Shown here in pieces: positions 8,946 through 53,100 of a DNA stretch of 64,000 nt. This stretch comes from an uncultured Candidatus Saccharibacteria bacterium (lineage in GTDB: Bacteria; Patescibacteriota; Minisyncoccia; Phycocordibacterales; UBA9973), in assembly GCA_964554645.1 (NCBI GenBank), contig CAZKPK010000001.1:3697-67696 (forward strand), read 5' to 3'. A program made the translations under genes and the position numbers. Under the pieces are notes generated by a model that was given only the letters and a program-made list of their open reading frames with translations, did not search any database and was not told where the DNA came from. Position 1 is the first letter of the stretch. Every line of letters starts with the position of its first letter.

Positions 8946-9026
8946 ACTATATTTCAACATGAGGAAGCGATATAAACAGAAAAGTAATAATCTAGATTAA
9001 AATAACTATATGCGCAATAGGCAACC

Positions 9027-9112: not shown

Positions 9113-9162
9113 GGAATCCAAAATCTCTATATCCATATTGGGAAATTCCTAAAAACAAAATT

Positions 9163-9596: not shown

Positions 9597-9665
9597 AGCT
9601 GTAGAACCAGAGTTATGCACATTATATTTCACTTAAGTTTGTTTTTGTAATATAATTAAGATACG

Positions 9666-10271: not shown

Positions 10272-10276
10272 TTTTT

Positions 10277-10897: not shown

Positions 10898-10973
10898 AAT
10901 AATTTCGCCCGAGCCGGAAAGGCTTTAGGGCTAAAAAATTAAAATTCCAATAGAGCGAACATAAAATAAAAAA

Positions 10974-11399: not shown

Positions 11400-11402
11400 A
11401 TT

Positions 11403-13151: not shown

Positions 13152-13227
13152 ACGGAGTTGTTCACCAAGTGTTATTTGAAAGTAATTTGTAGTATAATTG
13201 ATTATTAGTTAATAGAGGTAAAAATAT

Positions 13228-13620: not shown

Positions 13621-13625
13621 GCCAT

Positions 13626-14684: not shown

Positions 14685-14689
14685 AAAGA

Positions 14690-14732
14690 CCACAGGTCAG
14701 ACCTGTGGGATTCCCATAGGTCTGACCTATGG
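14690..14732. repeat. family B palindromes, tandem pair (REP-like)
   Basis: CCACAGGTCAGACCTGTGG (14690-14708) and CCCATAGGTCTGACCTATGG (14713-14732) between pilT stop and pilC start. Confidence 0.9.
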
Positions 14733-14744
14733 AACAATAAAGAT

Positions 14745-15953
14745 ATGTTATTCAAATACAAAGCGGTAGATCCTGAGGGTTTAAATAAAGAAGGAGAGAT
14801 TGACGCAACCAATCGCGATCTGGCGATAAGCGGTTTGCAGAGAAGAGGGTTGGTGATTATTTCCATCCAAGATGAAACAGAGCGCAAGTCTATTTTTTCA
14901 GTTTCTTTTTTTGAAAAAGTTTCCAATAAAGATGTAGTTATTCTTTCCCGCCAGATCGCGACTTTATTTGAAGCGCAAGTTTCGGCGCTGAAAGCCTTTA
15001 CGATGCTGGCGGCCAACGCGGAAAATAAGCTTCTGGGCCGCAAGCTGACCGTTATTGGCGATGATCTTCAAGCGGGGGTTTCCATTTCCGGCGCATTGGC
15101 GAAGCATCCGGATGTATTTTCCAGTTTTTATGTGAATATGGTCAAAGTGGGCGAGGAAACCGGAAAACTTGATCAGACCTTTCTATACTTGGCGGAGTAT
15201 TTAGATCGCCAATATTCCCTTACTTCCAAGACCAGAAATGCGCTTATTTATCCGGTTTTTGTGATTATTACGTTTTTTGTGGTTATGACTCTGATGTTTG
15301 TTGTGGTGATTCCAAAACTCTCTTCAATTATCCTGGATTCAGGGCAAGCAATACCGGTTTATACAAAAATAGTCATCGCAATTTCCAATCTTTTTGTTCA
15401 CTATGGTTTCTTTGTTTTGATTTTTTTGGTCTTGCTGGGCATCTGGGTTTGGAGATTATCTTCTACGGAAAAAGGGAAAGCGTATCTTGATTCATTAAAA
15501 CTCTCTACGCCGGCTGTAGGTAATTTATACAGGAAGCTTTTTCTTTCCAGAATGACGGACAGTTTAAATACCATGATTTCTTCCGGTATTCCAATAGTTC
15601 GGGCGATAGATATTACGGCCGAAGTTGTCGGCAGTCGCGTCTACAGAGGACTTCTAGGAGAGGTAGCGGATGAAGTAAAATCCGGTCTGGCGCTCTCTGT
15701 GGCGCTGGCCAGACATAAAGAAGAAATACCCAGTATTTTGGTGCAGATGGTGCAGGTGGGGGAGGAAACTGGTTCATTGGGGGCTATTTTAAAAACCTTG
15801 ACCAATTTCTATAAGCGCGAAGTGGATGATGCGATTGATACGTTAGTGGGCCTGATAGAACCGGTAATGATCGTGGTTTTGGGTCTCGGAGTGGGCATAC
15901 TCCTAGTTTCCGTATTAGGGCCAATTTACAATATGGCTGGAGGAATCAGTTAG
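14745..15953 (+). CDS. pilC: type IV pilus platform protein PilC (GspF family)
   Basis: 402 aa; duplicated GspF domains (MVKVGEETGKLD / MVQVGEETGSLG), 3 TM. Confidence 0.95.
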   Translation: MLFKYKAVDPEGLNKEGEIDATNRDLAISGLQRRGLVIISIQDETERKSIFSVSFFEKVSNKDVVILSRQIATLFEAQVSALKAFTMLAANAENKLLGRKLTVIGDDLQAGVSISGALAKHPDVFSSFYVNMVKVGEETGKLDQTFLYLAEYLDRQYSLTSKTRNALIYPVFVIITFFVVMTLMFVVVIPKLSSIILDSGQAIPVYTKIVIAISNLFVHYGFFVLIFLVLLGIWVWRLSSTEKGKAYLDSLKLSTPAVGNLYRKLFLSRMTDSLNTMISSGIPIVRAIDITAEVVGSRVYRGLLGEVADEVKSGLALSVALARHKEEIPSILVQMVQVGEETGSLGAILKTLTNFYKREVDDAIDTLVGLIEPVMIVVLGLGVGILLVSVLGPIYNMAGGIS

Positions 15954-15957
15954 GATT

Positions 15958-16059
15958 GATTCTCCTCTTGAGGAGTACTCCGACTCAGGTCGGAGGGAGG
16001 TGGATGAGTTTTTCCACCCCGTCCTTTGATTACAAAGTCCACCCCTCAAGAGGGGAATC
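15958..16059. repeat. family A inverted doublet (REPIN-like)
   Basis: Reverse unit GATTCTCCTCTTGAGGAG..GGGAGGTGGAT (15958-16005) faces forward unit TCCACCCC..CCCCTCAAGAGGGGAATC (16013-16059); 18-nt terminal inverted repeats, 2 mismatches. Confidence 0.9.
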
Positions 16060-16134
16060 GCTACCCCTGTGGATAACTTTCTTGCATGTTTTTTTGCCTC
16101 TATATGATATAATTACTCCATTAGAAAAATATTT

Positions 16135-16162
16135 CAGCCATAGGCTGATCCGCCTTAGGCGG
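16135..16162 (-). repeat. family D double-hairpin repeat
   Basis: CAGCCATAGGCTGATCCGCCTTAGGCGG = reverse complement of CCGCC-TAA-GGCGG-AT-CAGCC-TAT-GGCTG. Confidence 0.8.
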
Positions 16163-16203
16163 AAAAAATAAGTCGAAAATATATTATTATTAGTTAATTA
16201 TTA

Positions 16204-16233
16204 TTGACTTGCCCCGCTGGGGCGGGGTAGATA
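16204..16233 (+). promoter_or_regulatory. promoter-like element with GC hairpin just upstream of major pilin gene
   Basis: TTGACT (16204-16209), hairpin CCCCGC-TGGG-GCGGGG (16212-16227), TAGATA (16228-16233), ATG at 16242. Confidence 0.35.
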
Positions 16234-16241
16234 AATAAATT

Positions 16242-16706
16242 ATGAAGAATTTTAAAAAAGGTTTTACATTAATTGAACTCTTGGTCGTAGTAGCCATCAT
16301 CGGCATTTTGGCGTCGGTTGTCTTGGCGTCGTTGAATACAGCAAGGACAAAAGGTAAGGACGGAGCTGCACAAACATCCATAGCTAGTGTTAAAGCTCAA
16401 GCTGAAATTTTCTTTACTACTAATTATGGGACTGCGGGTACTATAACTGACGCATCTTCAGCTGGAACTACAAGTGCTTGTGATCAGGCCCAAGTTATAA
16501 ATATTCTTAAGTCTGTAAAAGGAAATACTGGTAGTACCGCAACTTGTGCAGTTGGTCTAGATGGTGCAACATGGGTAGCATGGAGTCAACTAGCTTCACA
16601 GACCTCACCAGCAAACTTCTGTGCGGATAGTACAGGTTTTAGTGGTTCTCGTACAGTTGCTCCTACGTCAGCAGTTACTGCTGCTGTGAGTTGTGCATCT
16701 AGTTAG
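16242..16706 (+). CDS. type IV major pilin (prepilin N-terminal methylation domain)
   Basis: 154 aa; MKNFKKG|FTLIELLVVVAIIGILASVVL class III signal; paired C-terminal Cys. Confidence 0.93.
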   Translation: MKNFKKGFTLIELLVVVAIIGILASVVLASLNTARTKGKDGAAQTSIASVKAQAEIFFTTNYGTAGTITDASSAGTTSACDQAQVINILKSVKGNTGSTATCAVGLDGATWVAWSQLASQTSPANFCADSTGFSGSRTVAPTSAVTAAVSCASS

Positions 16707-16749
16707 TAGTGCAAGTGCAAGCAAGGATAATCCTTGATATTTAGAAAAA

Positions 16750-16772
16750 CCACCCCAAAAGGGTGGTTTTTT
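16750..16772 (+). terminator. rho-independent terminator after pilin gene
   Basis: CCACCC-CAAAA-GGGTGG followed by TTTTTT. Confidence 0.8.
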
Positions 16773-16877
16773 GTTTGCGTGTTATATTTGGGTTATGGTA
16801 TGATTAAGAGTAAGAATCAAATATGTTTAACTCGCTTACTAGAAAATATTAATAATTAATTTGTGGATACAAATTTT

Positions 16878-16967
16878 ATGATAAATGCATATATATTAGG
16901 AGCTTTAGTACTTATAGCCCTTATTCTTTTGGTTATTCTTGCAAAGAAAAACAATCAAGAAAAGTAG
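16878..16967 (+). CDS. possible 29-aa hydrophobic peptide
   Basis: My translation: MINAYILGALVLIALILLVILAKKNNQEK; bracketed by two near-identical terminators. Confidence 0.25.
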   Translation: MINAYILGALVLIALILLVILAKKNNQEK

Positions 16968-17023
16968 TTTGTTCTAGCTACGGACTAGCTACGGACGTTG
17001 GACGTCCGACGAAGATCAGAAAG

Positions 17024-17050
17024 ACCACTCCCAAAAGGTGGTTTTTTTGT
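17024..17050 (+). terminator. terminator-like hairpin (paralog of 16750)
   Basis: ACCAC-TCCCAAAAG-GTGGT + TTTTTTT; sequence resembles the 16750 terminator. Confidence 0.5.
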
Positions 17051-17062
17051 TTTCTTTGCTTG

Positions 17063-17071
17063 TGGTATAAT
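17063..17071 (+). promoter_or_regulatory. extended -10 (TGgTATAAT) 6 nt upstream of MNT ATG
   Basis: TGGTATAAT-caaaaa-ATG(17078). Confidence 0.45.
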
Positions 17072-17077
17072 CAAAAA

Positions 17078-17470
17078 ATGAATATAAATGAGTTGCAATC
17101 AAAAATGATACCTTTGGCGGAAAAATACAATTTAAAATTAGTTGTTCTTTTTGGTTCGCAGGCTAGTGGACGGACACACAAAAGAAGCGACATAGATATA
17201 GCTGTTATTGGAAAAGTTGCTTTTGATATGACCAGACTCACAATTGATTTTTACAATCTTTTTAATAGAGAAGATGTAGAAATCGTTGATATCAGTAGCG
17301 CTTCGCCCACGACGATGTATGTAGTTGTCCGAGACGGAAAATTGTTATATGAAAGCGAATCCGGGGCTTTTTTGAAATGGAAACTTTATGCAATGTGGGT
17401 TTGGCGAGATACTGCATGGCTAAGAAGATTGCGCGATAAAAAATTGGTAGAGTGGGCCAAAACGGCATAA
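17078..17470 (+). CDS. nucleotidyltransferase-domain antitoxin (MNT/MntA-like)
   Basis: 130 aa from ATG 17078; LFGSQASGRTHKRSDIDIAV (GS..DxD NTase motif). Confidence 0.85.
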   Translation: MNINELQSKMIPLAEKYNLKLVVLFGSQASGRTHKRSDIDIAVIGKVAFDMTRLTIDFYNLFNREDVEIVDISSASPTTMYVVVRDGKLLYESESGAFLKWKLYAMWVWRDTAWLRRLRDKKLVEWAKTA

Positions 17471-17483
17471 TTCAATAATTCAT

Positions 17484-17912
17484 ATGATACAAAAAGACAC
17501 CATAAAAAAAATAGCTGTTATTCAAGATTATTTGAATGCTCTAGCTCTTTACTTGAAAATTCCTACGGAGGAATTATTGGAAAACAATGAAAAGCGAGCT
17601 GCCATGGAACGTTATTTTATTCTCATGGCAGATGAGGCTTTTGACATCAATAGTGCTTTGGCTTATCAACTCGGTAACAGGATTCCCGAATCAAATAAGT
17701 CAACGTTTTATGAAATAGCGAATTTGGATATAATCAGCAGAGAATTTGCGGATGAGATTTCATTATCCGCGAAGACGAGAAATAATCTCGTTCACGACTA
17801 TGAGAAGGTTCAAGAAAGCGTTCTCATTGAAGAAATGAAGAAATATGCGGAGTTATATAAAAAATATGTAAAGATTCTGATTGAAAAATTTGTGGCAGAT
17901 ATAGGGAAGTAG
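17484..17912 (+). CDS. HEPN/DUF86 toxin (HepT-like)
   Basis: 142 aa; RNNLVHDY = Rx4HxY HEPN motif; directly follows MNT gene. Confidence 0.85.
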   Translation: MIQKDTIKKIAVIQDYLNALALYLKIPTEELLENNEKRAAMERYFILMADEAFDINSALAYQLGNRIPESNKSTFYEIANLDIISREFADEISLSAKTRNNLVHDYEKVQESVLIEEMKKYAELYKKYVKILIEKFVADIGK

Positions 17913-17955
17913 TCTGATTTTGGTATTTTGTGGTTTAAAGTGATACAATATAACT

Positions 17956-18783
17956 ATGCTTTTTTTGCTTTTGGTTATTTTTTTCATCCTCGGTCTCATC
18001 ATCGGCAGCTTTTTGAATGTGATAATTTATCGGCTGAATACAGCCAGATCGTTCGGAGGCAGGAGCGCTTGTATGTCTTGTCAGAACAGGCTTTGCTGGT
18101 ATGAACTTATCCCACTCTTTAGTTTTTTGGGTCTTGGGGGGAGATGCCGAAGCTGTAAAACTAAAATTTCTATCCAATATCCGTTGGTGGAACTTGCGAC
18201 TGGCTTGATTTTCGCCTTGTTATTTTTTAAACTGCAAGATGTTTTTTATACTAATTCTCTGGTTTTTTTCATCACTTATGATTACTTTGCTTTATTGTTT
18301 TCACTTCTTCTAGTCATTGCCACTTATGATCTCAAACATAAAATAATTCCGGATATTTTGTCTTTTGCTTTTGGCGCGCTTGCTTTTATTGGCCTATTTT
18401 TCTTCTCCGCCCAAGGCGGATCCGCCTTTGGCGGAAATAATATTTTTTACCCCCATTTTCCCACAGTTTTAGAATTTTTGTCGGGTGGATTAATAGCGTT
18501 ACCTTTTGCTTTTTTTTGGCTTGTATCTTCCGGTCGGTGGATGGGGTTAGGGGATGCCAAGCTTGCGCTCGGCATTGGGTGGTTTTTAGGCATATCTTCT
18601 GCGCTCTCGGCTTTAGTGGTTGCTTTCTGGTCTGGAGCCATCGTCGGAATAATTCTCGTTATTTTTTCCAGAAATAGAAAAATTGGCAGGCTGGGGATGA
18701 AAAGCGAAATTCCTTTTGCCCCTTTCCTAGTTTTTGGCGCGTTTCTAGCTTTTATTTTTGGATTGAATCTTTTTGGAATTTAA
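17956..18783 (+). CDS. pilD: prepilin peptidase (A24 family)
   Basis: 275 aa; CMSCQNRL..CRSCKTKI zinc motif, YPLVE, GLGDAKL active-site Asp. Confidence 0.93.
   Translation: MLFLLLVIFFILGLIIGSFLNVIIYRLNTARSFGGRSACMSCQNRLCWYELIPLFSFLGLGGRCRSCKTKISIQYPLVELATGLIFALLFFKLQDVFYTNSLVFFITYDYFALLFSLLLVIATYDLKHKIIPDILSFAFGALAFIGLFFFSAQGGSAFGGNNIFYPHFPTVLEFLSGGLIALPFAFFWLVSSGRWMGLGDAKLALGIGWFLGISSALSALVVAFWSGAIVGIILVIFSRNRKIGRLGMKSEIPFAPFLVFGAFLAFIFGLNLFGI
18407..18434 (+). repeat. family D-like double hairpin inside pilD ORF
   Basis: CCGCC-CAA-GGCGG-AT-CCGCC-TTT-GGCGG, translated SAQGGSAFGG. Confidence 0.75.
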
Positions 18784-20593: not shown

Positions 20594-23222
<2,629 letters not shown>

Positions 23223-29438: not shown

Positions 29439-31367
29439 ATGAAAATTTCTTATAATTGGCTCAAATGGTATATACCGGAAGCGCCTCCCGCAAACAAACT
29501 TGCGGATATTTTTAATTACCATATTTGCGAAGTGGAGAGTGTCCAACACCGAGTGTTGGACAAAGATAAAGATTGGATTTTTGATTTAAAAGTTTTGCCG
29601 AACCGCGCGCATGATTTACTTTCACATCAGGGAGTCGCTCGCGAGCTTGCTTCACTTTTAGATATCAAATATGTAGATCCCACGCCGAAATATAAAATTC
29701 CCGCCTCCGCCAAGGCTGCCCCCTTCGCTGAAGTGGCTACGAAGGCCAAGTCGGCGGGCAAGCCGGAATTAAAAATTGATGTTCAAACGCCTTTATGCAG
29801 GCGATATATGGGCAGAATTATAAGGGGAATAAAAATCGGTCCCAGTCCGGAGTGGATGGTGAAGCATTTAGAATCAATAGGACAGAGAAGTATAAATAAT
29901 ATTGTAGATGCCGCCAATATTGTAATGTTTGATTGCGGACAGCCGACTCATGCTTTTGATCTGGATAAAATGAATAGCAAGATAATAGTGCGCGAGGCAG
30001 AAAATGACGAAGACATAACCACTTTAGATAATCAGGGAATAAAATTAAAAAGTTCAAATATGGTGATTGTAGATTCTAAAAATATTTTAGCGATTGCCGG
30101 AATAAAAGGCGGGAAGATTGCGGAAGTGGACAATAATACAAAAAATATAATTCTTGAGGTTGCTAATTTTGATCCGGTTTCGGTGCGGAAAACAGCTCAA
30201 GCCTTTAATCTATTTACCGACGCGCGAAAGAGGTTTGAAAATGACCTGTCGCCAGAATTGGCACCATATGCCATGCGCGAACTCTCGGCTCTCATTTTTG
30301 AAATGTGTCCGGACGCTATTTTTGAAGATGTTGTGGATGTTTACCCCCACACCAATGATATTGGTGTGGGGGTTTATCCTGAAAAACAAAAGGAGAAAAA
30401 ACTTTCTTTTTCGGCTGAAAGAATTTCAAAAATTTTAGGACTCAAAGTTTCAGTTAAAGAAATAGAAAATATTTTGCAGAGATATAATTTTAGGTATAAA
30501 GAAAATAAAGGGAAATTTGAGGTTGTTGTGCCACCGATGCGTCTTGATTTAGCAATAGAAGAAGATATGGCGGAAGAGATAGGTAGAATTCTGGGATATG
30601 ATAAAGTAAAACCACAAATTCCCCACATGTCTGACATGTGGGAACCACAGGTTAATGAGATTTATGCAAAAATTTCCTGGGTCAGAAATAAATTATTGGC
30701 TGATGGATATTCCGAAGTGATGACTTATACTTTTCGAGAAAAGGGAGAAATAGAAGTGCAAAATAGCGCTTCCGATAAAAAGTTTTTGCGAACGAATTTA
30801 ACTGATGGATTGAAAGAAAGCGTTAAATTAAATCACGCCAATGCCCCGCTGTTAGGAATTGACGAAATTAAAGTTTTTGAAATTGGAACTGTTTTCAAAA
30901 AAGATAAAGAGCAGATAAATATTTGTTTTAGTGACAAAAAAAATATCACAGAAGTTTCTTTAAATGATTTTTGTAAAGATATGCTTTCTAGTGATTCTCC
31001 TCTTGAGGAGTACCCTTTAGGGGGAGGTGGAAAATTTATCCACCCCGTCGCAAGCGCCACCCCTCAAGAGGGGAATAGATTCAAGATGTGGTCTTTGTTT
31101 CCTTTCATTGCGCGCGATATCGCTGTCTTTGTGCCGGAAAAAATTAAGAGTTTGGAAATAGAAAAAATAATAAAAAAGAATATGGGAAATATGGTGATTC
31201 GAGGTCCGGAACTTTTTGATGAATTCAAAAAAGGCAATCAGATTTCTTATGCCTTCAGATTGGTTTTTCAATCTTACGATCGGACACTGACAGACGCAGA
31301 AGTGAATGAAATTATGGATAAAATAACTGACAAAATTAAGAAGAATAAAGGTTGGCAAGTAAGGTAA
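29439..31367 (+). CDS. pheT: phenylalanine--tRNA ligase beta subunit (reduced architecture, several repeat-derived inserts)
   Basis: 642 aa; MKISYNWLKWYI, LPNRAHDLLSHQGVAREL, B3_4 IVDAANIVMFDCGQPTHAFDLDK, C-terminal FPFIARDIAVFV. Confidence 0.93.
   Translation: MKISYNWLKWYIPEAPPANKLADIFNYHICEVESVQHRVLDKDKDWIFDLKVLPNRAHDLLSHQGVARELASLLDIKYVDPTPKYKIPASAKAAPFAEVATKAKSAGKPELKIDVQTPLCRRYMGRIIRGIKIGPSPEWMVKHLESIGQRSINNIVDAANIVMFDCGQPTHAFDLDKMNSKIIVREAENDEDITTLDNQGIKLKSSNMVIVDSKNILAIAGIKGGKIAEVDNNTKNIILEVANFDPVSVRKTAQAFNLFTDARKRFENDLSPELAPYAMRELSALIFEMCPDAIFEDVVDVYPHTNDIGVGVYPEKQKEKKLSFSAERISKILGLKVSVKEIENILQRYNFRYKENKGKFEVVVPPMRLDLAIEEDMAEEIGRILGYDKVKPQIPHMSDMWEPQVNEIYAKISWVRNKLLADGYSEVMTYTFREKGEIEVQNSASDKKFLRTNLTDGLKESVKLNHANAPLLGIDEIKVFEIGTVFKKDKEQINICFSDKKNITEVSLNDFCKDMLSSDSPLEEYPLGGGGKFIHPVASATPQEGNRFKMWSLFPFIARDIAVFVPEKIKSLEIEKIIKKNMGNMVIRGPELFDEFKKGNQISYAFRLVFQSYDRTLTDAEVNEIMDKITDKIKKNKGWQVR
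29700..29758. repeat. GC-rich imperfect long hairpin inside pheT
   Basis: CCCGCC..CCTTCG / CGAAGG..GGCGGG arms; translated PASAKAAPFAEVATKAKSAG; strong local GC excess. Confidence 0.55.
30343..30373. repeat. 31-nt perfect palindrome inside pheT
   Basis: ACCCCCACACCAAT-GAT-ATTGGTGTGGGGGT; flanked by GTTTAC/GTTTAT; translated YPHTNDIGVGV. Confidence 0.85.
30622..30642. repeat. family B variant palindrome inside pheT
   Basis: CCCACATGTCTGACATGTGGG (21 nt), translated PHMSDMW (compare HRSDLW from canonical copies). Confidence 0.8.
30993..31076. repeat. family A inverted doublet inserted in frame in pheT
   Basis: GATTCTCCTCTTGAGGAG..GGGAGGTGGA + ATCCACCCCGTCGCAAGCGCCACCCCTCAAGAGGGGAAT; 84 nt = 28 codons (DSPLEEYPLGGGGKFIHPVASATPQEGN). 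Confidence 0.9.
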
Positions 31368-31379: not shown

Positions 31380-33488
<2,109 letters not shown>

Positions 33489-33507
33489 ATTTATTATATT
33501 GCGCTTT

Positions 33508-34095
33508 ATGAAAAAATTAATCTTAGCTTCAAGTTCAAGCACAAGGAAAAATTTGCTTACAGAAGCCGGCTTGAATTTTGAAATTGATCCAAGTAGTTAC
33601 GAAGAAGATATAACATTATTAATGTCTCCAAAAGAATTAGTGGCTCATTTATCTTACGGTAAAGCAAAAGATGTAGCATCGAGGCACCAAGAAGCCATAG
33701 TTCTAGGAGCTGATACAATTATTGTCTATCAAGATAAAATTCTCGGTAAACCTCATACATCGGAAAGAGCTAAAGAAATGTTAAAAATGTTAAGTGGTAG
33801 GGCACACTTAGTTGTTACTGGTTTTACAATAATTGATACGAAAAATAATCATAGCATCTCCAAAGTTGTAGAAACAGAAGTGTTTTTCAAAAATCTCACA
33901 GATAGAGAAATAGATAATTATGTAGCTACCGGTGAACCACTGAATAAAGCAGGGGCTTATGCAATTTTAGAGAATGGTGGCAAATTTGTTAAAAAGATCG
34001 AAGGAAGTAGAACAAATGTGTCAGGTTTACCCATGGAGGAGTTAATGAATGTTCTAAAAAATTCCCATAGGTCAGACCTATGGGATGTGTTATAA
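33508..34095 (+). CDS. maf: Maf-like nucleoside triphosphate pyrophosphatase
   Basis: 195 aa from ATG 33508; KLILASSSSTRKNLL, GADTIIVYQDKILGKP, AGAYAI; last residues (HRSDLWDVL) encoded by a family B palindrome. Confidence 0.88.
   Translation: MKKLILASSSSTRKNLLTEAGLNFEIDPSSYEEDITLLMSPKELVAHLSYGKAKDVASRHQEAIVLGADTIIVYQDKILGKPHTSERAKEMLKMLSGRAHLVVTGFTIIDTKNNHSISKVVETEVFFKNLTDREIDNYVATGEPLNKAGAYAILENGGKFVKKIEGSRTNVSGLPMEELMNVLKNSHRSDLWDVL
34064..34084. repeat. family B palindrome (left flank of RAYT gene)
   Basis: CCCATAGGTCAGACCTATGGG. Confidence 0.9.
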
Positions 34096-34102
34096 TAGCA
34101 GT

Positions 34103-34780
34103 ATGAGTCTCAGAGATTCGAATTTAGTGGAAAAAGAGTATTATCATATTTACAATCGCGGTAATGGAAAAAATAAAATTTTTAATTCCATAGAAGATTA
34201 CGATCGTTTTTGTAAACTTCTTTTTATTTGTAATTCTGAAAGAAGTTTTACATTCAGAGATTCAGTCGTAGATCAAAAAATTGATGCCTGGGATTTTGAA
34301 AGGGGAGAACCGCTTGTGGAAATATGTGCATGGGTTTTAATGCCTAATCATTTCCATATAATTTTAATTTCCCATAGGTCGGACCTATGGGATGAGAAGT
34401 ATAATCCAATAACGGAATTTATGAGAAAACTTTCTACGGCTTACGCTATGTATTTTAATAAGAAATATAACCGCACTGGATCTCTTTTTGAAGGAAAGTT
34501 TAAGTCTAAACATATTAGCAAAGATAATTATTTCCATTATTTATTTTCTTACATTCATCTTAATCCAATTAAATTAATCCAACCAGATTGGAAAGAAAAT
34601 GGTATCAAGAATAAAAAAGAAGCGATTGCTTATCTTATGAATTTTAAATATTCAAGTTTTCAAGATTTTTATGGTGTCTCTAGAAAAGAAGGAAAGATAA
34701 TAAATAAGAATTCGTTACCAGAAGATTTTAAATACAATCATGTTGAGGAACTTTTTGAATGGATAACTGATTCCCCATAG
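34103..34780 (+). CDS. IS200-like Y1 HUH transposase, REP-associated (RAYT-like)
   Basis: YHIYNRGN, HUH motif LMPNHFHIIL, catalytic Tyr motif YIHLNP; flanked by palindromes at 34064 and 34773. Confidence 0.85.
   Translation: MSLRDSNLVEKEYYHIYNRGNGKNKIFNSIEDYDRFCKLLFICNSERSFTFRDSVVDQKIDAWDFERGEPLVEICAWVLMPNHFHIILISHRSDLWDEKYNPITEFMRKLSTAYAMYFNKKYNRTGSLFEGKFKSKHISKDNYFHYLFSYIHLNPIKLIQPDWKENGIKNKKEAIAYLMNFKYSSFQDFYGVSRKEGKIINKNSLPEDFKYNHVEELFEWITDSP
34371..34391. repeat. family B palindrome inserted inside the RAYT ORF
   Basis: CCCATAGGTCGGACCTATGGG, 21 nt = 7 codons (SHRSDLW), 2 residues after the HUH motif. Confidence 0.9.
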
Positions 34781-34795
34781 GTCAGACCTATGGGG
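34773..34795. repeat. family B palindrome (right flank; provides RAYT stop codon)
   Basis: CCCCATAGGTCAGACCTATGGGG; the TAG at 34778-34780 is the stop. Confidence 0.9.
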
Positions 34796-34834
34796 AATCA
34801 CTTCTTGAAATTCTCAAAAAAGAAAGGAAATAAA

Positions 34835-35521
34835 TTATTTCTTGTTTATAGTTTCTAACTTTTCTCCTTTCCAGAATTCATATAGCGGTGAAATAAACAT
34901 TCCTGTCACAAAGAACCAGACCAAATCTTCAACTGGAATATTTAAAAGCATTATGCCAGAAATATTTTTATGTATCCAAAAATTTATCGCTGTCGGGTCG
35001 AAAGAGAAAATTATATAATAAATAGGTATAGAAATTAAGGTAATGATCACTCCACTCGTTAAAGACAGGATGATTAAATCTTTTCTGTAAAAATAAATTA
35101 CTAGCGTTGGAATTAACATTGTAAATAATGATGAATAGAAAGAGTGTATATTTATATAGAAAAATGTAAAATTTCCAATGAATGTTGACAACAATATCAC
35201 AATTATAAAATGTTTTAGATGAGTATTCTTTTTTCCACGAATTTTAACTAATTTATCCTTAAAGATTTCTTCATATATTGAAACTATTATTCCTCCGACA
35301 AAGAAACCAAAAAGAATATCTTCTATACCCACAATTGTTCCTGTTATGGTGGTAGGTTTCCACCAATCCTTTGTCCAGATAAAAGCTTCCATAAAAGTAG
35401 CCACTATGGCAACTAGACTACCCATCAATAATATTTCTTTTCTAAGATCTTTACGATATATATACAGAATCAACCAAACCGGAAAATACATTAAAACTCC
35501 AATTAAATATGTTGAATTCAT
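34835..35521 (-). CDS. polytopic membrane protein with internal duplication (lycopene-cyclase-domain-like)
   Basis: 228 aa; two homologous halves (YIYRKDLRKE..GIEDILFGFF / FYRKDLIIL..PVEDLVWFFV); family call tentative. Confidence 0.5.
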   Translation of the reverse strand: MNSTYLIGVLMYFPVWLILYIYRKDLRKEILLMGSLVAIVATFMEAFIWTKDWWKPTTITGTIVGIEDILFGFFVGGIIVSIYEEIFKDKLVKIRGKKNTHLKHFIIVILLSTFIGNFTFFYINIHSFYSSLFTMLIPTLVIYFYRKDLIILSLTSGVIITLISIPIYYIIFSFDPTAINFWIHKNISGIMLLNIPVEDLVWFFVTGMFISPLYEFWKGEKLETINKK

Positions 35522-37284
35522 TATTTTTTATCCTTCATTTCTTCCAAAAGTTTTTTAATTAGTTCTTCTTTTGATATTTGTCCGAGGTTACCGGTGCCCG
35601 CCTTGGTGGGTAAATCGCGGGATTCAAGGGTCACTTTTTTGGCTTCAATTTCTTTGTCACCGAGGACAATCCAATACGGGATTTTGTTTGTTTTTGCATC
35701 GCGGACTTTCTTGCCAAGATTTTCATCTCCGTCATCCAGCTCTGCGCGAATATTATTTTCTTTTAATAATTTAAAAATTTCTTTGGCGTATTCGTTATGA
35801 TTTTCTCGCACTGGAATTATCTTTACTTGTGTTGGTGACAACCAAAGAGGGAAAGCACCAGCGGTGTGCTCGATTAAAATAGAAAGAAATCTTTCAATTG
35901 ATCCCATAATCGCTGCGTGAATCATTACGATGCGTTCTTGTTGTCCTTTTTCGTTGATACAATATAAATCGAATCTTTCAGGCATATTCATATCGATCTG
36001 AATAGTAGCTACTTGATGTTCTCTGCCAATAGCGTCTTTGGCCATGAAATCTATCTTTGGTCCATAAAAAGCTGCTTCTCCTATAGCTTCAATCGCTTTT
36101 TCACCATTCTTTTCAATTATTTTTCTTAAAGCATTTTCTGAATTTACCCATATTTCAGAAGTGCCTAAGTATGCCTTCATATTTTTCGGATCGTGGAGGG
36201 AAAGACGGGGTTTTAGAATAAAACCAAAAGAACCATAGAAAGTTTTTATAATATTATAAATTTTACCCATTTCATCGCCCGCTTGATCTAATCGACAGAA
36301 TACGTGCGCGTCATCTTGAGTAATGGAACGTACTCTAGAAAGCCCAGATAGTTCTCCTGTTTGCTCATCGCGATAAACTTTCGTAGTCGAGGCATATCTT
36401 TGAGGGAGTTCTTTATAGCTCCACTGACGTCTGTTGTAAATCTGAGTATGATGCGGACAATTCATCGGCTTTATTGTAAATGTGTGTTTTTCTCGGGTAG
36501 TTATTCTAAACAAATCATCCCTGAATTTATCCCAGTGCCCAGACTTCTCGTAAAGCTCCTTCTTGGTTATGTGTGGAATATCCACTCTTTCATAACCGGC
36601 GATTTCACGCAGTTCCCAGACAAAACCGTCCAGCAAGTCTCTTAGCATTGTGCCTTTTGGGGTGAAGAGGGGAAGTCCTGCGCCTACTAGTTCTGAGAAA
36701 GTAAATAAATCAAGTTCTTGGCCGATCTTTTTATGGTCTCTTTTTTCTGCTTCTTCTCGCTGTTTTATATATACATCGAGTTCTTCCTTTGTTTCAAAAG
36801 CGAGTCCATAAATACGCGTGAGCATTTTGTTTTTCTCATCTCCACGCCAATAAGCTCCGGCTACACGGTCTAGCCTGAAAGCATCTACTGGCAGTTCTTT
36901 ATTTGGATGTTCCAAGTGCCCGCCTTTACACAGGTCCACCAAAGTTCCAGATGTATAGAAAGTTAATTTTTTTCCATCTTTAGCAAATTCCTCAAGTAGT
37001 TCGGTTTTGTATTCATTCCAGGCAAATTCTTTTCTAGCTTCTTCTAGTGTTACTTCGCGGCCGGTAAACGTATTCCAAGTCTTTATAATTTCCCGCATTT
37101 TCTTTTCTATTTTAGGGAAATCTTCAACAGAAACTGCTTTTGGTAAATCAAAATCTTGGTAAAAACCATCATCAATAGCTGGACCGATAGCATTTTTGGC
37201 TCCTGGATATAGTTCTTTTATGGCTGTTACCAAAAGGTGTGCTAAGGTGTGTCTGATCTTGTATGCGTTGTCCACTTTTTCCAT
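35521..37284 (-). CDS. thrS: threonine--tRNA ligase (no N-terminal TGS domain)
   Basis: 587 aa; starts at the editing-domain HTLAHLL; RVRSITQDDAHVFC; class II core and anticodon-binding domain. Confidence 0.96.
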   Translation of the reverse strand: MEKVDNAYKIRHTLAHLLVTAIKELYPGAKNAIGPAIDDGFYQDFDLPKAVSVEDFPKIEKKMREIIKTWNTFTGREVTLEEARKEFAWNEYKTELLEEFAKDGKKLTFYTSGTLVDLCKGGHLEHPNKELPVDAFRLDRVAGAYWRGDEKNKMLTRIYGLAFETKEELDVYIKQREEAEKRDHKKIGQELDLFTFSELVGAGLPLFTPKGTMLRDLLDGFVWELREIAGYERVDIPHITKKELYEKSGHWDKFRDDLFRITTREKHTFTIKPMNCPHHTQIYNRRQWSYKELPQRYASTTKVYRDEQTGELSGLSRVRSITQDDAHVFCRLDQAGDEMGKIYNIIKTFYGSFGFILKPRLSLHDPKNMKAYLGTSEIWVNSENALRKIIEKNGEKAIEAIGEAAFYGPKIDFMAKDAIGREHQVATIQIDMNMPERFDLYCINEKGQQERIVMIHAAIMGSIERFLSILIEHTAGAFPLWLSPTQVKIIPVRENHNEYAKEIFKLLKENNIRAELDDGDENLGKKVRDAKTNKIPYWIVLGDKEIEAKKVTLESRDLPTKAGTGNLGQISKEELIKKLLEEMKDKK

Positions 37285-44433: not shown

Positions 44434-44721
44434 TTATTTCTTGTTTAAAATAGTAGAATGCAATTCTCTAATGCTTTTATAAGATTTTATTTTTTTATTT
44501 TTAAGATCATTCACGGTATTTTCTATTTCTTTGGCAAGCTCGGACTCATATTCATCAGTATATCCATTTATAGTTTTTAGTTCAAAGGGAATGCGCTGTT
44601 GTTCCACACTTTGGTGCAAAAAGAGCTTCACTGCACTCGATATATCGAGTCCCATGCGCGCAAAAGTCTTACGGGCGTCTTCTTTTATCTTTTCGTCAAT
44701 TCGTATATTTAATGTAGTCAT
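44434..44721 (-). CDS. dinJ: RelB/DinJ-family antitoxin
   Basis: 95 aa from ATG 44721 (MTTLNIRIDEKIKEDARKTFARMGLDISSAVKLFL); the longer track ORF reads through the promoter. Confidence 0.85.
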   Translation of the reverse strand: MTTLNIRIDEKIKEDARKTFARMGLDISSAVKLFLHQSVEQQRIPFELKTINGYTDEYESELAKEIENTVNDLKNKKIKSYKSIRELHSTILNKK

Positions 44722-44728
44722 AGAATTT

Positions 44729-44764
44729 AGTATATACATTGTGCGCACAAAGTCAAGTCTTGAC
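44729..44764 (-). promoter_or_regulatory. dinJ-yafQ promoter with two palindromic operators
   Basis: Minus strand: TTGACT (44756-44751), 16 nt, TATACT (44734-44729). TTGTGCGCACAA (44739-44750) fills the spacer. GTCAAGTCTTGAC (44752-44764) overlaps the -35. Confidence 0.6.
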
Positions 44765-44966
44765 AATAGGGTCAAGATATGCGATACTATCAGAGATATG
44801 TTTTTACCTTTGTTGATAGTTATAGCTATCATCATGCTATGCGTGACGATGGCGTGGTTGAAGGACGAGGATAGGTAATTCTCGTCCAAGTTCAAAAAGC
44901 TGGCACGTCCAAGGTCGTGCTAGCTTTTTTGTTTGCAATTTTTCATTTTTATGTTAGACTTACTAA

Positions 44967-50119: not shown

Positions 50120-53100
50120 ATGAAAACTTTAAACACAACTGAATTTAATTCGATCGCCCTACGGCTTGCGTCTCCGGAACAAATCAAGGAGTGGTCATTC
50201 GGGGAAGTGACGAAGCCCGAGACGATAAATTATCGCACTGGCCGATCCGAACGTGGAGGTCTCTTTGATGAAAAAATATTTGGACCGGAAAAAGATTACG
50301 AATGTTATTGCGGAAAATACCGCCGGATTCGTTATAAAGACATCATTTGCGAGAAATGCGGAGTGGAAGTTACCCGTTCGATAGTGCGCCGAGAGCGAAT
50401 GGGACACATCGAGCTTGGAACTCCCGTCTCGCATATTTGGTTTCTGCGCGGGGTGCCTTCTCGGATGAGCATTCTGCTTAATATATCCGTGACGGATCTG
50501 GAAAAGGTAATATATTTTGCCGGATATATAATTACTAAAGTTCACGAGGATGAGAAAGAAGCTGTTATTGCCAATTTAGATAAGGAATACAAATCTAAAT
50601 TAAAAAATGCGACCGATGATGATACTCGAGAAAAATTGAAAAATCTGCTTTCTATTACCAAGAAAGAAATTGGGGAAATTTATGAAGGGAAAGTTCTGAA
50701 TGAAATTTCTTTTCATCACTATTCTTTGAAATACGGAACTTGTTTTGAGGCCAATATAGGCGCTGAAGCTATTTATTCCATTTTTAAAAATTTAGATTTA
50801 GATAAATTAAAGACCCATACCGAAAAGATGATCGAAAAAGCCAGCGTGGCTGAAAAAGAGAAATTACAGAAAAGGCTTTCTCTTATTCGCGCTATGACCT
50901 ATGCCGGAATTCGTCCGGAATGGATGTTTTTGACCGTTTTTCCAGTTATTCCTCCTGTCTTGCGCCCGATGGTCGCTTTAGATGGAGGTCGGCACGCGAC
51001 TTCCGACTTGAATGATCTTTATCGTCGAGTTATTAATCGAAACAATCGCTTGAAGAAGTTGAAAGAAATCAATGCGCCGGATGTAATTTTGCGAAATGAA
51101 AAAAGAATTATTCAAGAAGCGGTTGATGCGCTGATCGATAATTCAATTGCCAAACAGAATGATTCTGCCGCCATGAGTCAGTCTCAAAAGCGTCCCCTAA
51201 AATCGCTGTCAGACAATTTAAAATCAAAACAAGGTCTTTTCCGCCAAAATTTGCTTGGAAAAAGAGTAGATTATTCAGGACGTTCAGTGATTGTCGTTGG
51301 TCCCGAGCTTAAGCTTAATCAATGCGGATTGCCAAAACACATGGCGCTGGAACTTTTTAGGCCATTTGTAATTTCCAAAATCTTGCAAGCGGAATTGGCG
51401 TTTAATATTCGCGGGGCAAACAAGCTGATAGAAGAACGAGGGGGGGAAGTCTGGGCAATGCTGGAAGAGGTTATTGCCGGAAAATACGTTCTCTTGAACC
51501 GCGCGCCGACCCTCCATCGTTTAGGTATCCAAGCTTTTAATCCGATTTTAATCGAGGGAAATGCTATTCAAGTTCACCCTCTTGTCTGCCAAGCTTTCAA
51601 CGCTGACTTTGATGGAGACCAAATGGCAGTCTATGTTCCTTTGCTTGAAGAAGCGCAATGGGAGGCAAAAGAGTTCATGGCTTCGAACAAGAATTTACTA
51701 AAACCCCAAAATGGCGATCCGATCGTGCATCCGCGCATGGATATGGTGCTTGGAAGTTTTTGGATGACGAAATCAATAGAAGGAGAAGTGGGTGAAGGCA
51801 AGTATTTTTCTAGGCCCAACACCGCCGTCACGGCCTATGATTATGGGATTATTTCTATGCGGGCCAAAATAAAAGTTCTTCCAATGGATAAACCCAAGTA
51901 TAAGAAATTTAATGGAGAAATTTTTGAAACGACCGTCGGCAGAATCATATTCAATAGTATTTTGCCGGATGATTTTCACTATGTAAATGATGAAATGACT
52001 CAAGATAGGTTGTCTTCTCTCTTGGATGAATTGATTATGCACTCGGGAGTTGAAAATATTCCCCATATTTTGGATACAATTAAAGCTTTTGGTTTTAAAT
52101 ATTCTACTATCTCCGGCACCACTTGGGGGTTGGATAATGTTTCTGTGTCTTCCGAGAAACCGAAAATTATAGCCGAAGGCAAGAAACTTGAAAAAGAAAT
52201 AATCTCCCAGTGGCAGGAAGGTCTTTTATCTGAGGAAGAAAAATATCAAAAAGTTATTGAAGTTTGGACGCATATGAAGAAAAATTTGGAAAAAGTTTTA
52301 CCCAAGACGGTTGACAAACACAGTTCCACTTACGATATATTTACTTCTAAAGCCAGAGGCACGATGAGTTCTTTGATGCAGATGACTGGAATGATCGGGC
52401 TGATTCAAAATAACCAAGGCAAAACCCTGGAATTTCCGATTATCCCTTGCTATCAAGAAGGGCTTTCCCCAATTGAATATTTCGTTATTACTCATGGCGC
52501 TCGCAAAGGCGCTTCCGATACCGCGTTAAATACCGCCAAAGCTGGATATCTAACTCGCAGATTGGTTGATGTGGCGCAGGATGTGGTTATCACTGAAGTA
52601 GATTGCGGAACCAAAGAGGGCAGGATAGTTACCAAAGAAAATATTTCTGGAATTGAAATTCCGCTTTCAAAAAATATCCGCGGGCGGGTATTGGCGGGAG
52701 ATCTTAAAAACAAAAATGGCAAGGTAGTTTATAAAAAAGGGTTTTTAGTCACGAAAGAGGAGGCCTACAATATTGAAGGAGCAGGTTTTACGGAAGTATT
52801 TGTCCGTTCTCCTTTAACCTGCCGCACTGTTCATGGTCTGTGTGTCATGTGTTATGGACTTGACTTAGGACGAAATCGTTTAGTGGAGCTTGGCGAAGCG
52901 GTCGGCATTATCGCGGCTCAGGCCATCGGAGAACCGGGAACTCAGCTTACGCTTCGCACCTTTCACGCTGGGGGCGTTGCCGGCACTGATATTACCACCG
53001 GTCTTCCGCGTGTCGAAGAAATATTTGAAAGGAGAATTCCTAAAAATCCGGCCATTATTTCTGAAACCGATGGTGAAGTGATCGAAATAAAAATAAAAGA

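What the first reader, a model, noticed from the sequence alone, without database searches (positions are those of the whole stretch)
34064..34795. RAYT-like Y1 transposase flanked by its cognate 21-nt palindromes
The ORF has the HUH motif (NHFHIIL) and the YIHLNP tyrosine motif of IS200-like/REP-associated tyrosine transposases. It is flanked by CCCATAGGTCAGACCTATGGG (34064) and CCCCATAGGTCAGACCTATGGGG (34773). Dispersed copies of the same palindrome occur at 14690-14732 (pair), 30622 (variant, in pheT) and 34371. The left copy encodes the C-terminus of maf (HRSDLWDVL). The right copy supplies the transposase stop codon. This is a textbook REP/RAYT arrangement in what looks like a very small genome.
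Basis: partly seen in the sequence, partly recalled or inferred. Interest (0 to 1): 0.6.

Follow-up and report, generated by a model that had tools for sequence, protein, structure and literature searches.

The report
RAYT gene carrying its own palindrome
A Patescibacteria (CPR) genome encodes a RAYT-like HUH/tyrosine enzyme whose cognate 21-23-nt palindrome lies over its promoter, in-frame inside its coding sequence and at its stop codon; the same palindrome is scattered at low density through the genome, often in-frame inside housekeeping genes, which makes this a real but non-textbook variant of a known system.

Summary
The ORF most likely starts at ATG 34103 and ends at 34780. It is a Y1 HUH/tyrosine enzyme of the RAYT/TnpAREP kind: HUH NHFH, Tyr motif YIHLNP, best fold match to E. 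coli RAYT (4ER8), no tnpB.

It lies inside the RAYT gene, just after the HUH strand. About 74 homologous loci from Patescibacteria MAGs were compared:
- Nearly every homologue is flanked upstream and downstream by the same lineage-specific palindrome.
- In the clade containing the window (43 genes), a third copy sits in-frame at the same loop.
- That third copy co-varies with the flanks through many different palindrome sequences.

The palindromes are perfect and lack a GTAG tag. They are low in copy number, about 0.3 per 10 kb outside the gene. They often lie in-frame in real genes (UvrA, LigA, TopA, RNase HII, MnmA, PheT).

In-frame REPs inside tnpAREP (subclass 2.4) and intragenic REPs have both been published. 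I therefore class this as a new variant of a known kind, not a new system. How the three copies stay identical is unexplained.

The parts
34103..34780 (+). RAYT-like Y1 HUH/tyrosine enzyme gene (225 aa; stop TAG 34778-34780). The mechanical ORF starts at 34085, but the conserved start is ATG 34103.
   Evidence: NCBIfam REP_Tyr_transpos E=5e-12. Pfam Y1_Tnp 20.6 bits. Foldseek top hit 4er8_A. dN/dS 0.085 against the L083 orthologue.
34349..34357 (+). HUH motif (H83-F84-H85, within WVLMPNHFH)
   Evidence: Invariant in 21 aligned homologues. Lies on predicted strand E83-90.
34550..34567 (+). Catalytic tyrosine motif YIHLNP (Y150)
   Evidence: Y150, H152, L153, N154 and P155 are invariant. Matches the Y---NP signature of class 2 TnpAREP (PMC6006769, Table 1).
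34063..34085 (.). Upstream copy of the palindrome TCCCATAGGTCAGACCTATGGGA. It lies in the -35/spacer position of the RAYT promoter and encodes the SHRSDLW tail of Maf.
   Evidence: DNA hairpin -9.4 kcal/mol, z -4.4. Homologues carry a copy about 45 nt before the ATG.
34088..34096 (+). Extended -10 box TGtTATAAT, ending 6 nt before ATG 34103. This implies a leaderless mRNA. The maf stop codon TAA (34093-34095) lies inside the box.
   Evidence: Read directly from the sequence. A TATAAT-like box at -12 to -7 recurs in most homologous loci. Promoter function is inferred, not shown.
34370..34392 (.). Internal in-frame copy TCCCATAGGTCGGACCTATGGGA. It encodes S90-W96 (SHRSDLW) between the HUH strand and the long helix.
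34765..34803 (.). Downstream copy with an extended stem (perfect 16 bp over 34768-34800). It contains the stop codon.
   Evidence: (-15.7 kcal/mol, z -7.8). Homologues carry a copy at or just after the stop codon.
14689..14733 (.). Intergenic doublet between pilT and pilC. It combines the CACAGG/CCTGTG variant with the canonical copy, 3 nt apart, and can fold as one long REPIN-like hairpin.
   Evidence: -18.2 kcal/mol.
30622..30642 (.). Variant copy CCCACATGTCTGACATGTGGG in-frame in pheT (PHMSDMWE)
   Evidence: The same CACATG stem flanks RAYT homologues in L013 and L017.
33508..34095 (+). maf gene. Its last ~10 codons are supplied by the upstream palindrome and the RAYT promoter.
   Evidence: Pfam Maf E=1e-58, aligned to residues 13-195 of the 205-aa ORF. 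In the syntenic locus L083 the palindrome is intergenic, after a Ham1-like gene.

Best explanation
This is a REPtron-like unit of a Patescibacteria genome. It consists of a vertically maintained, purifying-selected RAYT/TnpAREP-type single-strand DNA nuclease-ligase and its cognate short perfect palindrome.

Inferred mechanism, by analogy with E. coli TnpAREP and IS608 TnpA:
- The palindrome extrudes as a hairpin on single-stranded DNA.
- The enzyme recognises the hairpin.
- It cleaves next to the hairpin, using the HUH-bound metal and Tyr150.
- It rejoins the strand elsewhere.

This activity seeds and renews copies of the palindrome. Because the genome is compact, copies survive where they are tolerated: after stop codons and in-frame in surface loops of proteins.

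Three copies are fixed at the gene itself:
- One overlaps the -35/spacer of a leaderless extended -10 promoter. It is a plausible operator and also a terminator for the upstream gene.
- One is at the stop codon.
- One is in-frame in the beta3-alphaC loop, right after the HUH strand.

The internal copy arose once, at the base of the clade containing the window. Since then it has been kept identical to the two flanking copies, while the palindrome sequence changed many times between lineages. This requires conversion or re-insertion. The most economical agent is the enzyme acting in cis on its own gene.

Shown: the anatomy, conservation, co-variation, fold, selection and dispersal. Inferred: the catalysis, the conversion mechanism and any regulatory role.
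For: Protein:
- HUH and Y---NP motifs are invariant.
- All 21 aligned relatives hit NCBIfam REP_Tyr_transpos, best E=2e-13.
- The AF2 model best matches 4er8_A, the E. coli RAYT-REP complex, at E=6.8e-5. IS608 and ISDra2 TnpA follow.
- dN/dS is 0.085 against the syntenic orthologue.
- There is no tnpB in the window.

Flanking copies:
- Most of the 74 homologous genes have the same 15-nt core with 0-1 mismatch both upstream and downstream. The sequence differs between loci.

Internal copy:
- An NJ tree splits a clade with a short loop and no internal copy (31 genes) from a clade with an internal copy (43 genes).
- In about 34 of those 43, the internal copy matches the flanks at 0-1 mismatch in 15 nt. 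This holds across stems such as CATAGG, CACAGG, CCTAGG, CATAAG, CACAAG, CCGAAG and CACCAG, and across unrelated palindromes such as GCGGAAGC.., CCGGTAACC.. and CCCTATCCCCGGG..
- The encoded peptide changes with the palindrome: SHRSDLW, SPRSDLG, NAEARLPQ, PAGNPVTG.

Dispersal:
- The window has 3 extra copies.
- Outside the genes there are 23 extra copies in 861 kb of flanks, against 0.03 per 10 kb in a cross-locus control.
- The metagenome scan gave 65 solo copies in 62 loci, against 38 gene-associated copies in 17 loci.
- The ten ORFs tested that carry in-frame copies are genuine UvrA, MiaA, MnmA, LigA, XerC/D-like, RNase HII, TopA and similar.

Promoter:
- A TATAAT box ending 6 nt before the ATG recurs across loci.

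Precedent:
- In-frame REPs inside tnpAREP, between HuH and Y, are described for subclass 2.4 (PMC6006769).
- Intragenic REPs, enriched in replication and repair genes, are described in PMC3733652.
Against: - No activity was tested.
- The window protein is below the curated cut-offs of both Pfam Y1_Tnp (20.6 versus 23) and NCBIfam REP_Tyr_transpos (45.8 versus 80).
- The palindromes lack the GT[AG]G guide tetranucleotide that canonical TnpAREP uses. They are fully symmetric, which would also suit a dimeric double-strand DNA binder.
- Copy density is low, so the amplification activity is weak or rare.
- Six clade members keep perfect flanks but have a decayed internal copy (L002, L013, L017, L029, L048, L068). 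The internal copy is therefore dispensable.
- Relatives at 84-87% identity sit in a different genomic context. RAYT synonymous divergence (pS 0.49) is also lower than that of the 8 syntenic neighbours (0.69-0.83). Both hint at some horizontal movement rather than pure vertical descent.
- The AF2 model has only moderate confidence (pLDDT 67.8).
Confidence: 0.75

Rival explanations
1. The unit is an autonomous IS200-type insertion sequence: tnpA alone, bounded by left-end and right-end hairpins. It moves as a whole, and the solo palindromes are footprints or target sites.
For: - Hairpins bound the gene on both sides.
- Genes 84-87% identical to the window's sit in a different context, pth-hyp-RAYT-dnaE.
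- Synonymous divergence is lower than in the neighbouring genes.
- The fold also matches IS608 and ISDra2 TnpA.
Against: - The Tyr motif is Y---NP, not Y---Q. The protein is 225 aa, not about 150 (PMC6006769, Table 1).
- There is no tnpB.
- There is one copy in 64 kb. Paralogues within one MAG are only about 50-70% identical to the query, and each has its own palindrome.
- L083 is syntenic with the window across 9 genes.
- Solo palindromes outnumber genes.
- dN/dS is 0.085.
Confidence: 0.1
2. The internal copy is not a passive passenger. It is a functional cis element through which the enzyme controls its own gene. Possible modes are a roadblock or attenuator on DNA or mRNA, or cleavage or inversion between the three sites acting as an on/off switch. 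Together with the operator-like upstream copy, it would form an autoregulatory circuit.
For: - The internal copy stays at a fixed position and remains a perfect palindrome across a whole clade, although synonymous sites are saturated between lineages and the encoded peptide is free to change.
- The upstream copy sits at a conserved distance from a conserved -10 box.
Against: - Six lineages lost the internal copy but keep an intact gene and perfect flanks.
- The sister clade (31 genes) never had one.
- The published view for subclass 2.4 is that such insertions lie in a peripheral loop with little impact (PMC6006769).
- No inverted or deleted half-genes were seen in 97 assembled loci.
Confidence: 0.25
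3. The palindromes are host elements, such as bidirectional terminators, mRNA-stabilising hairpins, or sites for a dimeric double-strand DNA-binding protein. Their link to the HUH gene would be incidental or merely regulatory.
For: - Perfect two-fold symmetry.
- The upstream copy scores as a terminator-like site on both strands.
- Many copies lie right after stop codons.
Against: - Each paralogue or lineage has its own palindrome at its own gene, and all copies change together.
- About half of the solo copies are inside coding sequences, where a terminator would be harmful.
- Stems carry copy-specific extensions, which point to hairpin biology rather than a fixed protein site.
- The downstream and internal copies have no T-run.
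Confidence: 0.07

Closest known systems
REPtron of E. coli and relatives (TnpAREP/RAYT plus REP/BIME; PDB 4ER8; Nunvar 2010 PMC2817692, Messing 2012 PMC3479197, Corneloup 2021 PMC8266576)
   Same: - Y1 HUH/Tyr enzyme with a Y---NP motif.
- Low-copy gene bracketed by its cognate palindrome, often in inverted orientation as judged by the apex.
- The same palindrome is dispersed in the genome.
- Each paralogue has its own palindrome family.
- A palindrome lies at or immediately after the stop codon.
   Different: - No GT[AG]G guide tetranucleotide and no bulge; the palindromes are perfectly symmetric.
- Roughly 0.3 copies per 10 kb rather than hundreds per genome.
- Many copies are intragenic.
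- The protein is 225 aa with a C-terminal tail and falls below the NCBIfam equivalog cut-off.
- The host is Patescibacteria.
Subclass 2.4 TnpAREP (Bertels group 4) of Cyanobacteria and Bacteroidetes, with REPs inserted inside tnpAREP (Quentin et al. 2018, PMC6006769)
   Same: [quoted passage not shown]
- These REPs are also 'double foot', meaning symmetric.
   Different: - Motif signature here is NHFH / FE / YIHLNP with an SS tail. This fits subclass 2.1 (NH[YF]H, FQ, Y[IV]HLNP, SS) rather than 2.4 (WQ, YIxNNP).
- No GT[AG]G...C[TC]AC feet.
- Here the internal copy is shown to be clade-wide, at one site, and co-varying with both flanks.
Intragenic REPs and Rickettsia palindromic elements (Di Nocera 2013, PMC3733652; Ogata 2000, as cited there)
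   Same: - Palindromic repeats are inserted in-frame in functional genes.
- They are enriched in replication, repair and tRNA-related genes. Here these are LigA, UvrA, TopA, RNase HII, XerC/D-like, PheT, MnmA and MiaA.
   Different: - The elements here are only about 21-33 nt (7-11 aa).
- They are untagged.
- They are tied to an identifiable cognate RAYT-like gene.
IS200 (IS200/IS605 family, tnpA only)
   Same: A Y1 HUH transposase fold with hairpins at both ends of the gene.
   Different: The Y motif, protein length, copy number, paralogue divergence, synteny and the excess of solo palindromes all differ.

Membership tests
Y1 HUH transposase superfamily (Pfam PF01797 Y1_Tnp) | HUH metal-binding motif on a beta strand | tested here: met
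   NHFH at residues 82-85. H83 and H85 are invariant in 21 homologues. The motif lies on predicted strand E83-90.
Y1 HUH transposase superfamily (Pfam PF01797 Y1_Tnp) | Single catalytic tyrosine on a C-terminal helix | tested here: met
   Y150 is invariant and lies in predicted helix H140-152.
Y1 HUH transposase superfamily (Pfam PF01797 Y1_Tnp) | Score at or above the Pfam gathering threshold | tested here: not met
   20.6 bits against a cut-off of 23. 18 of 21 relatives match at E<=0.01, best 6.8e-6.
Y1 HUH transposase superfamily (Pfam PF01797 Y1_Tnp) | Fold similarity to solved Y1 transposases | tested here: met
   Foldseek against PDB: 4er8_A E=6.8e-5, probability 1.00, TM(target) 0.56. 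2a6m, 2vic and 2xo6 follow. The model pLDDT is only 67.8.
RAYT / TnpAREP REPtron (class 2 of Quentin 2018) | Y---NP tyrosine motif | tested here: met
   YIHLNP. Criterion from PMC6006769, Table 1.
RAYT / TnpAREP REPtron (class 2 of Quentin 2018) | NCBIfam REP_Tyr_transpos equivalog cut-off | tested here: not met
   45.8 bits against 80. All 21 relatives hit at E<=0.01, best E 2.3e-13.
RAYT / TnpAREP REPtron (class 2 of Quentin 2018) | Gene flanked on both sides by its cognate palindrome | tested here: met
   Window copies at 34063-34085 and 34765-34803. The same arrangement holds in most of the 74 homologous loci.
RAYT / TnpAREP REPtron (class 2 of Quentin 2018) | The same palindrome is dispersed elsewhere in the genome | tested here: met
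   Window copies at 14689, 14713 and 30622. 0.27 per 10 kb against a 0.03 control. 65 solo copies in metagenome contigs. A whole-genome count was not possible.
RAYT / TnpAREP REPtron (class 2 of Quentin 2018) | Conserved GT[AG]G (or CGTC) tetranucleotide at the foot of the REP | tested here: not met
   6 of 102 flanking palindromes have GT[AG]G at or near a foot, against 8% of random positions. CGTC occurs in 2 of 102.
RAYT / TnpAREP REPtron (class 2 of Quentin 2018) | High REP copy number (typically more than 100 per genome) | tested here: inconclusive
   The density in sampled flanks would extrapolate to tens of copies per Mb. No complete genome was available.
RAYT / TnpAREP REPtron (class 2 of Quentin 2018) | Low gene copy number, divergent paralogues, no tnpB | tested here: met
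   One gene in 64 kb. Paralogues in the same MAG are divergent and have different palindromes. No tnpB.
RAYT / TnpAREP REPtron (class 2 of Quentin 2018) | Cleavage and strand transfer on folded single-stranded REP DNA | not testable with these tools
   Requires biochemistry, for example the CST assay of PMC8266576.
TnpAREP subclass 2.4 (internal REP) | REP inserted in-frame in tnpAREP between HuH and Y | tested here: met
   34370-34392 encodes residues 90-96, between strand E83-90 and helix H102-122. Conserved in the clade.
TnpAREP subclass 2.4 (internal REP) | Motif signature NH[IFV]H / WQ / YIxNNP | tested here: not met
   NHFH fits. However the W-motif position reads FE (SLFEGKF) and the Y motif is YIHLNP (against PMC6006769 Table 1).
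TnpAREP subclass 2.1 (Bertels group 1) | Motif signature NH[YF]H / FQ / Y[IV]HLNP, about 238 aa, proximal tail with an SS motif | tested here: inconclusive
   NHFH, YIHLNP, 225 aa and the invariant S184-S185 (YSSFQD) all fit. FE stands in place of FQ. The published subclass HMMs were not available, so no formal assignment was made.
TnpAREP subclass 2.1 (Bertels group 1) | No REP-like sequences near the gene (as reported for 2.1) | tested here: not met
   Cognate palindromes flank, and here also interrupt, the gene.
IS200/IS605 TnpA (subclass 1.1) | Y---Q motif, about 150 aa, several near-identical copies, frequent tnpB | tested here: not met
   YIHLNP and 225 aa. The gene is single in the window, paralogues are divergent, and there is no tnpB.

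The most novel reading that the evidence does not exclude
The RAYT gene keeps a working copy of its own substrate inside its coding sequence. The three gene-borne hairpins (promoter, HUH-proximal loop, stop codon) would then form a self-acting module. This module would both autoregulate the enzyme and serve as the master template from which the genome's palindrome population is renewed. It would explain how enzyme specificity and palindrome sequence switch together across lineages.
Probability: 0.2. Interest if true: 0.75.

Novelty: new variant of a known kind. Interest (0 to 1): 0.5.

Why it matters
How REP families and their RAYTs co-evolve, and what RAYTs actually do, are open questions that have been studied almost only in Proteobacteria.

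This family is very large: about 8000 database relatives, all of those listed being from Patescibacteria. Every lineage displays three copies of its current palindrome at fixed positions of one small gene. That gives a natural series of matched enzyme-substrate pairs, differing by single compensatory base pairs, for specificity studies.

The family also shows that, in ultra-compact CPR genomes, palindromic repeats persist largely by residing in-frame in essential proteins such as LigA, RpoC, PheT, UvrA and TopA. This matters for annotation, for protein-family alignments of CPR organisms, and for understanding insertions in their proteins.

It is not a new class of system. Both intragenic REPs and REPs inside tnpAREP have been reported.

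Tried and rejected
- **PDB sequence-profile search with A1.** It found no transposase. The relationship was seen only by fold.
- **Rfam on 33400-35400.** Only a sub-threshold chance hit, rli43 at 17.7 bits against 100.
- **Promoter scan tool.** It did not report the -10 box because it requires a -35 hexamer. The promoter call therefore rests on direct reading and cross-locus conservation.
- **Literature searches for RAYT or REP in Patescibacteria/CPR.** Nothing relevant was found.
- **IS200/IS605 with tnpB.** Rejected: no tnpB and the wrong Y motif.
- **The internal copy as a recent chance insertion.** Rejected, because SHRSDLW and its DNA palindrome are conserved in relatives, and other lineages carry their own palindrome at the same site.
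- **The conserved SHRSDLW as a protein motif that merely looks palindromic.** Rejected, because the peptide changes completely wherever the flanking palindrome differs.
- **Apex orientation.** I looked for a fixed orientation rule among the upstream, internal and downstream copies. Upstream is often inverted relative to downstream, but the pattern is variable.
Full report
**What is in the window**

The palindrome CCCATAGGTC-N-GACCTATGGG occurs at 34064, 34371 and 34774. Further copies are at 14713 and, as a compensatory CACAGG/CCTGTG variant, at 14689. None is expected by chance. A second variant, CCCACATGTCTGACATGTGGG, lies in pheT at 30622.

As single-stranded DNA, the upstream and internal copies fold at -9.4 kcal/mol and the downstream copy at -15.7 kcal/mol. 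All are well beyond shuffled controls.

The ORF between the flanking copies carries WVLMPNHFH and YIHLNP. Its neighbours are maf upstream and, downstream, a membrane protein and thrS. No tnpB-like gene is present anywhere in the 64 kb.

**What the protein is**

- The protein scores just below the Pfam Y1_Tnp threshold (20.6 versus 23 bits).
- It hits NCBIfam REP_Tyr_transpos at E=5e-12, but below the equivalog cut-off (45.8 versus 80). All 21 aligned relatives hit that model.
- An AlphaFold2 model (pLDDT 67.8) best matches the E. coli RAYT-REP complex 4ER8 (E=6.8e-5). IS608 and ISDra2 TnpA follow.
- A database search returns about 8000 relatives of about 225 aa. Those that carry names come from Patescibacteria, Parcubacteria or Paceibacterota.
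- The motif signature is NHFH, FE, YIHLNP and an invariant SS in the tail. This resembles subclass 2.1 of Quentin et al. 2018 rather than the E. coli subclass 2.2 or subclass 2.4 (PMC6006769, Table 1). I could not run their HMMs.
- Against the syntenic orthologue in L083, the protein is 86.7% identical with dN/dS 0.085, which makes it as conserved as gyrB. Eight neighbouring genes are 53-88% identical with saturated synonymous sites. The gene is clearly functional.

The copy at 34371 lies inside the RAYT gene. It encodes S90-W96 (SHRSDLW), directly after the HUH strand and before the long helix. SHRSDLW is conserved in the closest relatives. It is not, however, a protein motif.

I fetched 80 homologous loci from MAGs and compared them:
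- The same position holds a different perfect palindrome in different lineages, for example TCCCCTAGGTC.., GCGGAAGCAAGGCTTCCGC, GCCGGTAACCCGGTTACCGGC and TTTCCCCTATCCCCGGGATAGGGGAAA.
- The encoded peptide changes accordingly.
- In each locus the same palindrome recurs about 45 nt upstream of the start codon and at, or just after, the stop codon.

A neighbour-joining tree, built with the loop masked, splits the family in two:
- One clade (31 genes) has a short loop and no internal copy, but matched flanks.
- The other clade (43 genes, including the window) has the internal copy. It matches the flanks at 0-1 mismatch in 15 nt in about 34 of these genes. It has decayed in six that still keep perfect flanks.

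The internal copy therefore arose once. Since then it has evolved in concert with the flanks through many compensatory changes. Point mutation cannot plausibly deliver this at three sites and on both arms. Conversion or re-insertion is required. The loop's variable length, and partial arm duplications beside some copies (sequences), are compatible with repeated insertion. No mechanism is shown.

**Promoter context**

Most homologues have a TATAAT-like box ending 6 nt before the ATG. In the window this is TGtTATAAT at 34088-34096, followed by ATG at 34103. This implies a leaderless mRNA whose -35/spacer region is occupied by the upstream palindrome.

The arrangement looks like an operator. It also looks like a terminator for the upstream gene. 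A regulatory function is inferred only.

In the window, the palindrome and promoter extend the maf reading frame by about 10 codons. In L083 the same palindrome is intergenic, after a different gene.

**Dispersal**

- Outside the genes, matching copies occur at 0.27 per 10 kb in 861 kb of flanks. A cross-locus control gives 0.03 per 10 kb.
- An exact-pattern scan of metagenome contigs found 78 loci. They hold 38 matches beside a RAYT homologue, as triplets spaced about 320 and 405 nt. A further 65 solo matches have no RAYT gene nearby.
- About half of the solo copies are in-frame in long ORFs, read as HRSDLW or PIGxTYG. The third frame has a TAG, which is why a copy can supply a stop codon.
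- The ten such ORFs I tested are genuine UvrA, MiaA, MnmA, LigA, enoyl-CoA hydratase, XerC/D-like recombinase, RNase HII and topoisomerase I.

The palindrome is thus dispersed. Its density is low, however, and it is not 'extragenic'.

**Comparison with what is known**

The anatomy is that of a REPtron: a RAYT bracketed by its cognate REPs. Published sources are PMC2817692, PMC6006769 and PMC8266576.

Two features that looked unusual are already published:
- REPs inserted in-frame inside tnpAREP, between HuH and Y, are described as a hallmark of subclass 2.4 in Cyanobacteria and Bacteroidetes (PMC6006769, sections 12 and 15).
- Intragenic REPs, enriched in replication and repair genes, are described by Di Nocera et al. 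(PMC3733652).

What differs here:
- The host phylum is different, and nothing was found in the searchable literature for it.
- The motif signature is closer to subclass 2.1, which was reported as REP-less.
- There is no GT[AG]G or CGTC tag (6 of 102 and 2 of 102), and the palindromes are perfectly symmetric.
- Copy number is low.
- The internal copy is demonstrably clade-wide, sits at a fixed site and co-varies with both flanks.

**Rival explanations**

- *Autonomous IS200-like element.* This is disfavoured by the motif, length, copy number, divergent paralogues with distinct palindromes, synteny and the excess of solo copies. Some horizontal movement cannot be excluded, because close relatives sit in a second context and the gene's synonymous divergence is lower than its neighbours'.
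- *Purely host-regulatory role for the hairpins.* This does not explain the gene-specific co-variation or the intragenic copies.
- *The internal copy as a functional cis element rather than a tolerated, homogenised passenger.* This remains open. Its long persistence as a perfect palindrome argues for a function. Its loss in six lineages and its absence from the sister clade argue against necessity.

**Verdict**

The finding is real, and it is correctly assigned to the RAYT/REP kind. It is a non-canonical variant rather than a textbook case. Its most interesting feature, a conserved and co-evolving in-frame copy of the palindrome inside the RAYT gene, has a published precedent in another subclass.

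Noticed in passing
window 21353-21375, 21533-21555, 21763-21804 (ligA 21045-23222); 53546-53595 (rpoC 50120-53791): Other perfect palindrome families lie in-frame in essential genes. TTGGCGGTT(A/T)AACCGCCAA occurs singly and as doublets in ligA and near the C-terminus of rpoC, encoding [13 protein letters not shown] in both. CCCTCCCCTTAATAAGGGGAGGG also lies in ligA. The window holds 19 strong perfect palindromes, against about 0.6 in shuffles, and 12 of them are inside ORFs.
   Followed up: partly
window 29540-29562, 30343-30373 (pheT 29439-31367): pheT carries three palindromes. The 33-nt ACCCCCACACCAATGATATTGGTGTGGGGGT is a clean 11-aa insertion (VYPHTNDIGVG) relative to the 72%-identical orthologue in L083.
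   Followed up: partly
window 18406-18435 (prepilin peptidase ORF 17956-18783): The tandem pair TCCGCCCAAGGCGGA / TCCGCCTTTGGCGGA lies in-frame, encoding SAQGGSAFGG.
   Followed up: no
L106:1590-1638, L145:5954-6002; window 34765-34803: Stems often extend beyond the shared core by copy-specific inverted repeats, giving perfect palindromes of up to 45 nt. In the window, the sequence after the stop codon mirrors the last codons of the gene. This suggests inverted duplication of flanking sequence or palindrome growth.
   Followed up: partly
L024, L031, L021, L036, L055, L060 (upstream regions of the RAYT homologues): Partial duplications of one palindrome arm lie directly beside the full palindrome, for example GACTTATGGCTA-CTTATGGCTA and AAAAACGGAAGCCT-AAAAACGGAAGCCTTGCTTCCGTTTTT. 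These may be footprints of the insertion or replacement process (sequences).
   Followed up: no
window 34103-34780 versus L083:10001-10678: RAYT synonymous divergence (pS 0.49) is lower than in all eight syntenic neighbours (0.69-0.83). The cause could be nucleotide-level constraint or more recent shared ancestry of the gene.
   Followed up: no
L006/L025/L034 (one MAG); L054/L073/L078; L081:4779-5432: Several MAGs carry two or three divergent paralogues, each with its own palindrome. The GGTTAAACC apex flanking the L078 paralogue resembles the window's ligA/rpoC palindrome family. This suggests a second paralogue elsewhere in the window's genome.
   Followed up: no
window 14689-14733: The pilT-pilC intergenic doublet combines a variant and a canonical palindrome, 3 nt apart. 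It can fold as one long REPIN-like hairpin (-18.2 kcal/mol). A similar variant-plus-canonical doublet occurs in metagenome locus L155.
   Followed up: no
window 35521-37284 versus L083:11012-12259: The class II tRNA synthetase downstream of the RAYT gene is 587 aa in the window but only 415 aa in the syntenic L083 locus. The two share 53% identity over the common part.
   Followed up: no
window 7244-18783: A type IV pilus gene cluster is present: pilM, pilB, pilT, pilC, a pilin and the prepilin peptidase. This is typical of Patescibacteria. A RelB-like antitoxin ORF lies at 44434-44895.
   Followed up: no
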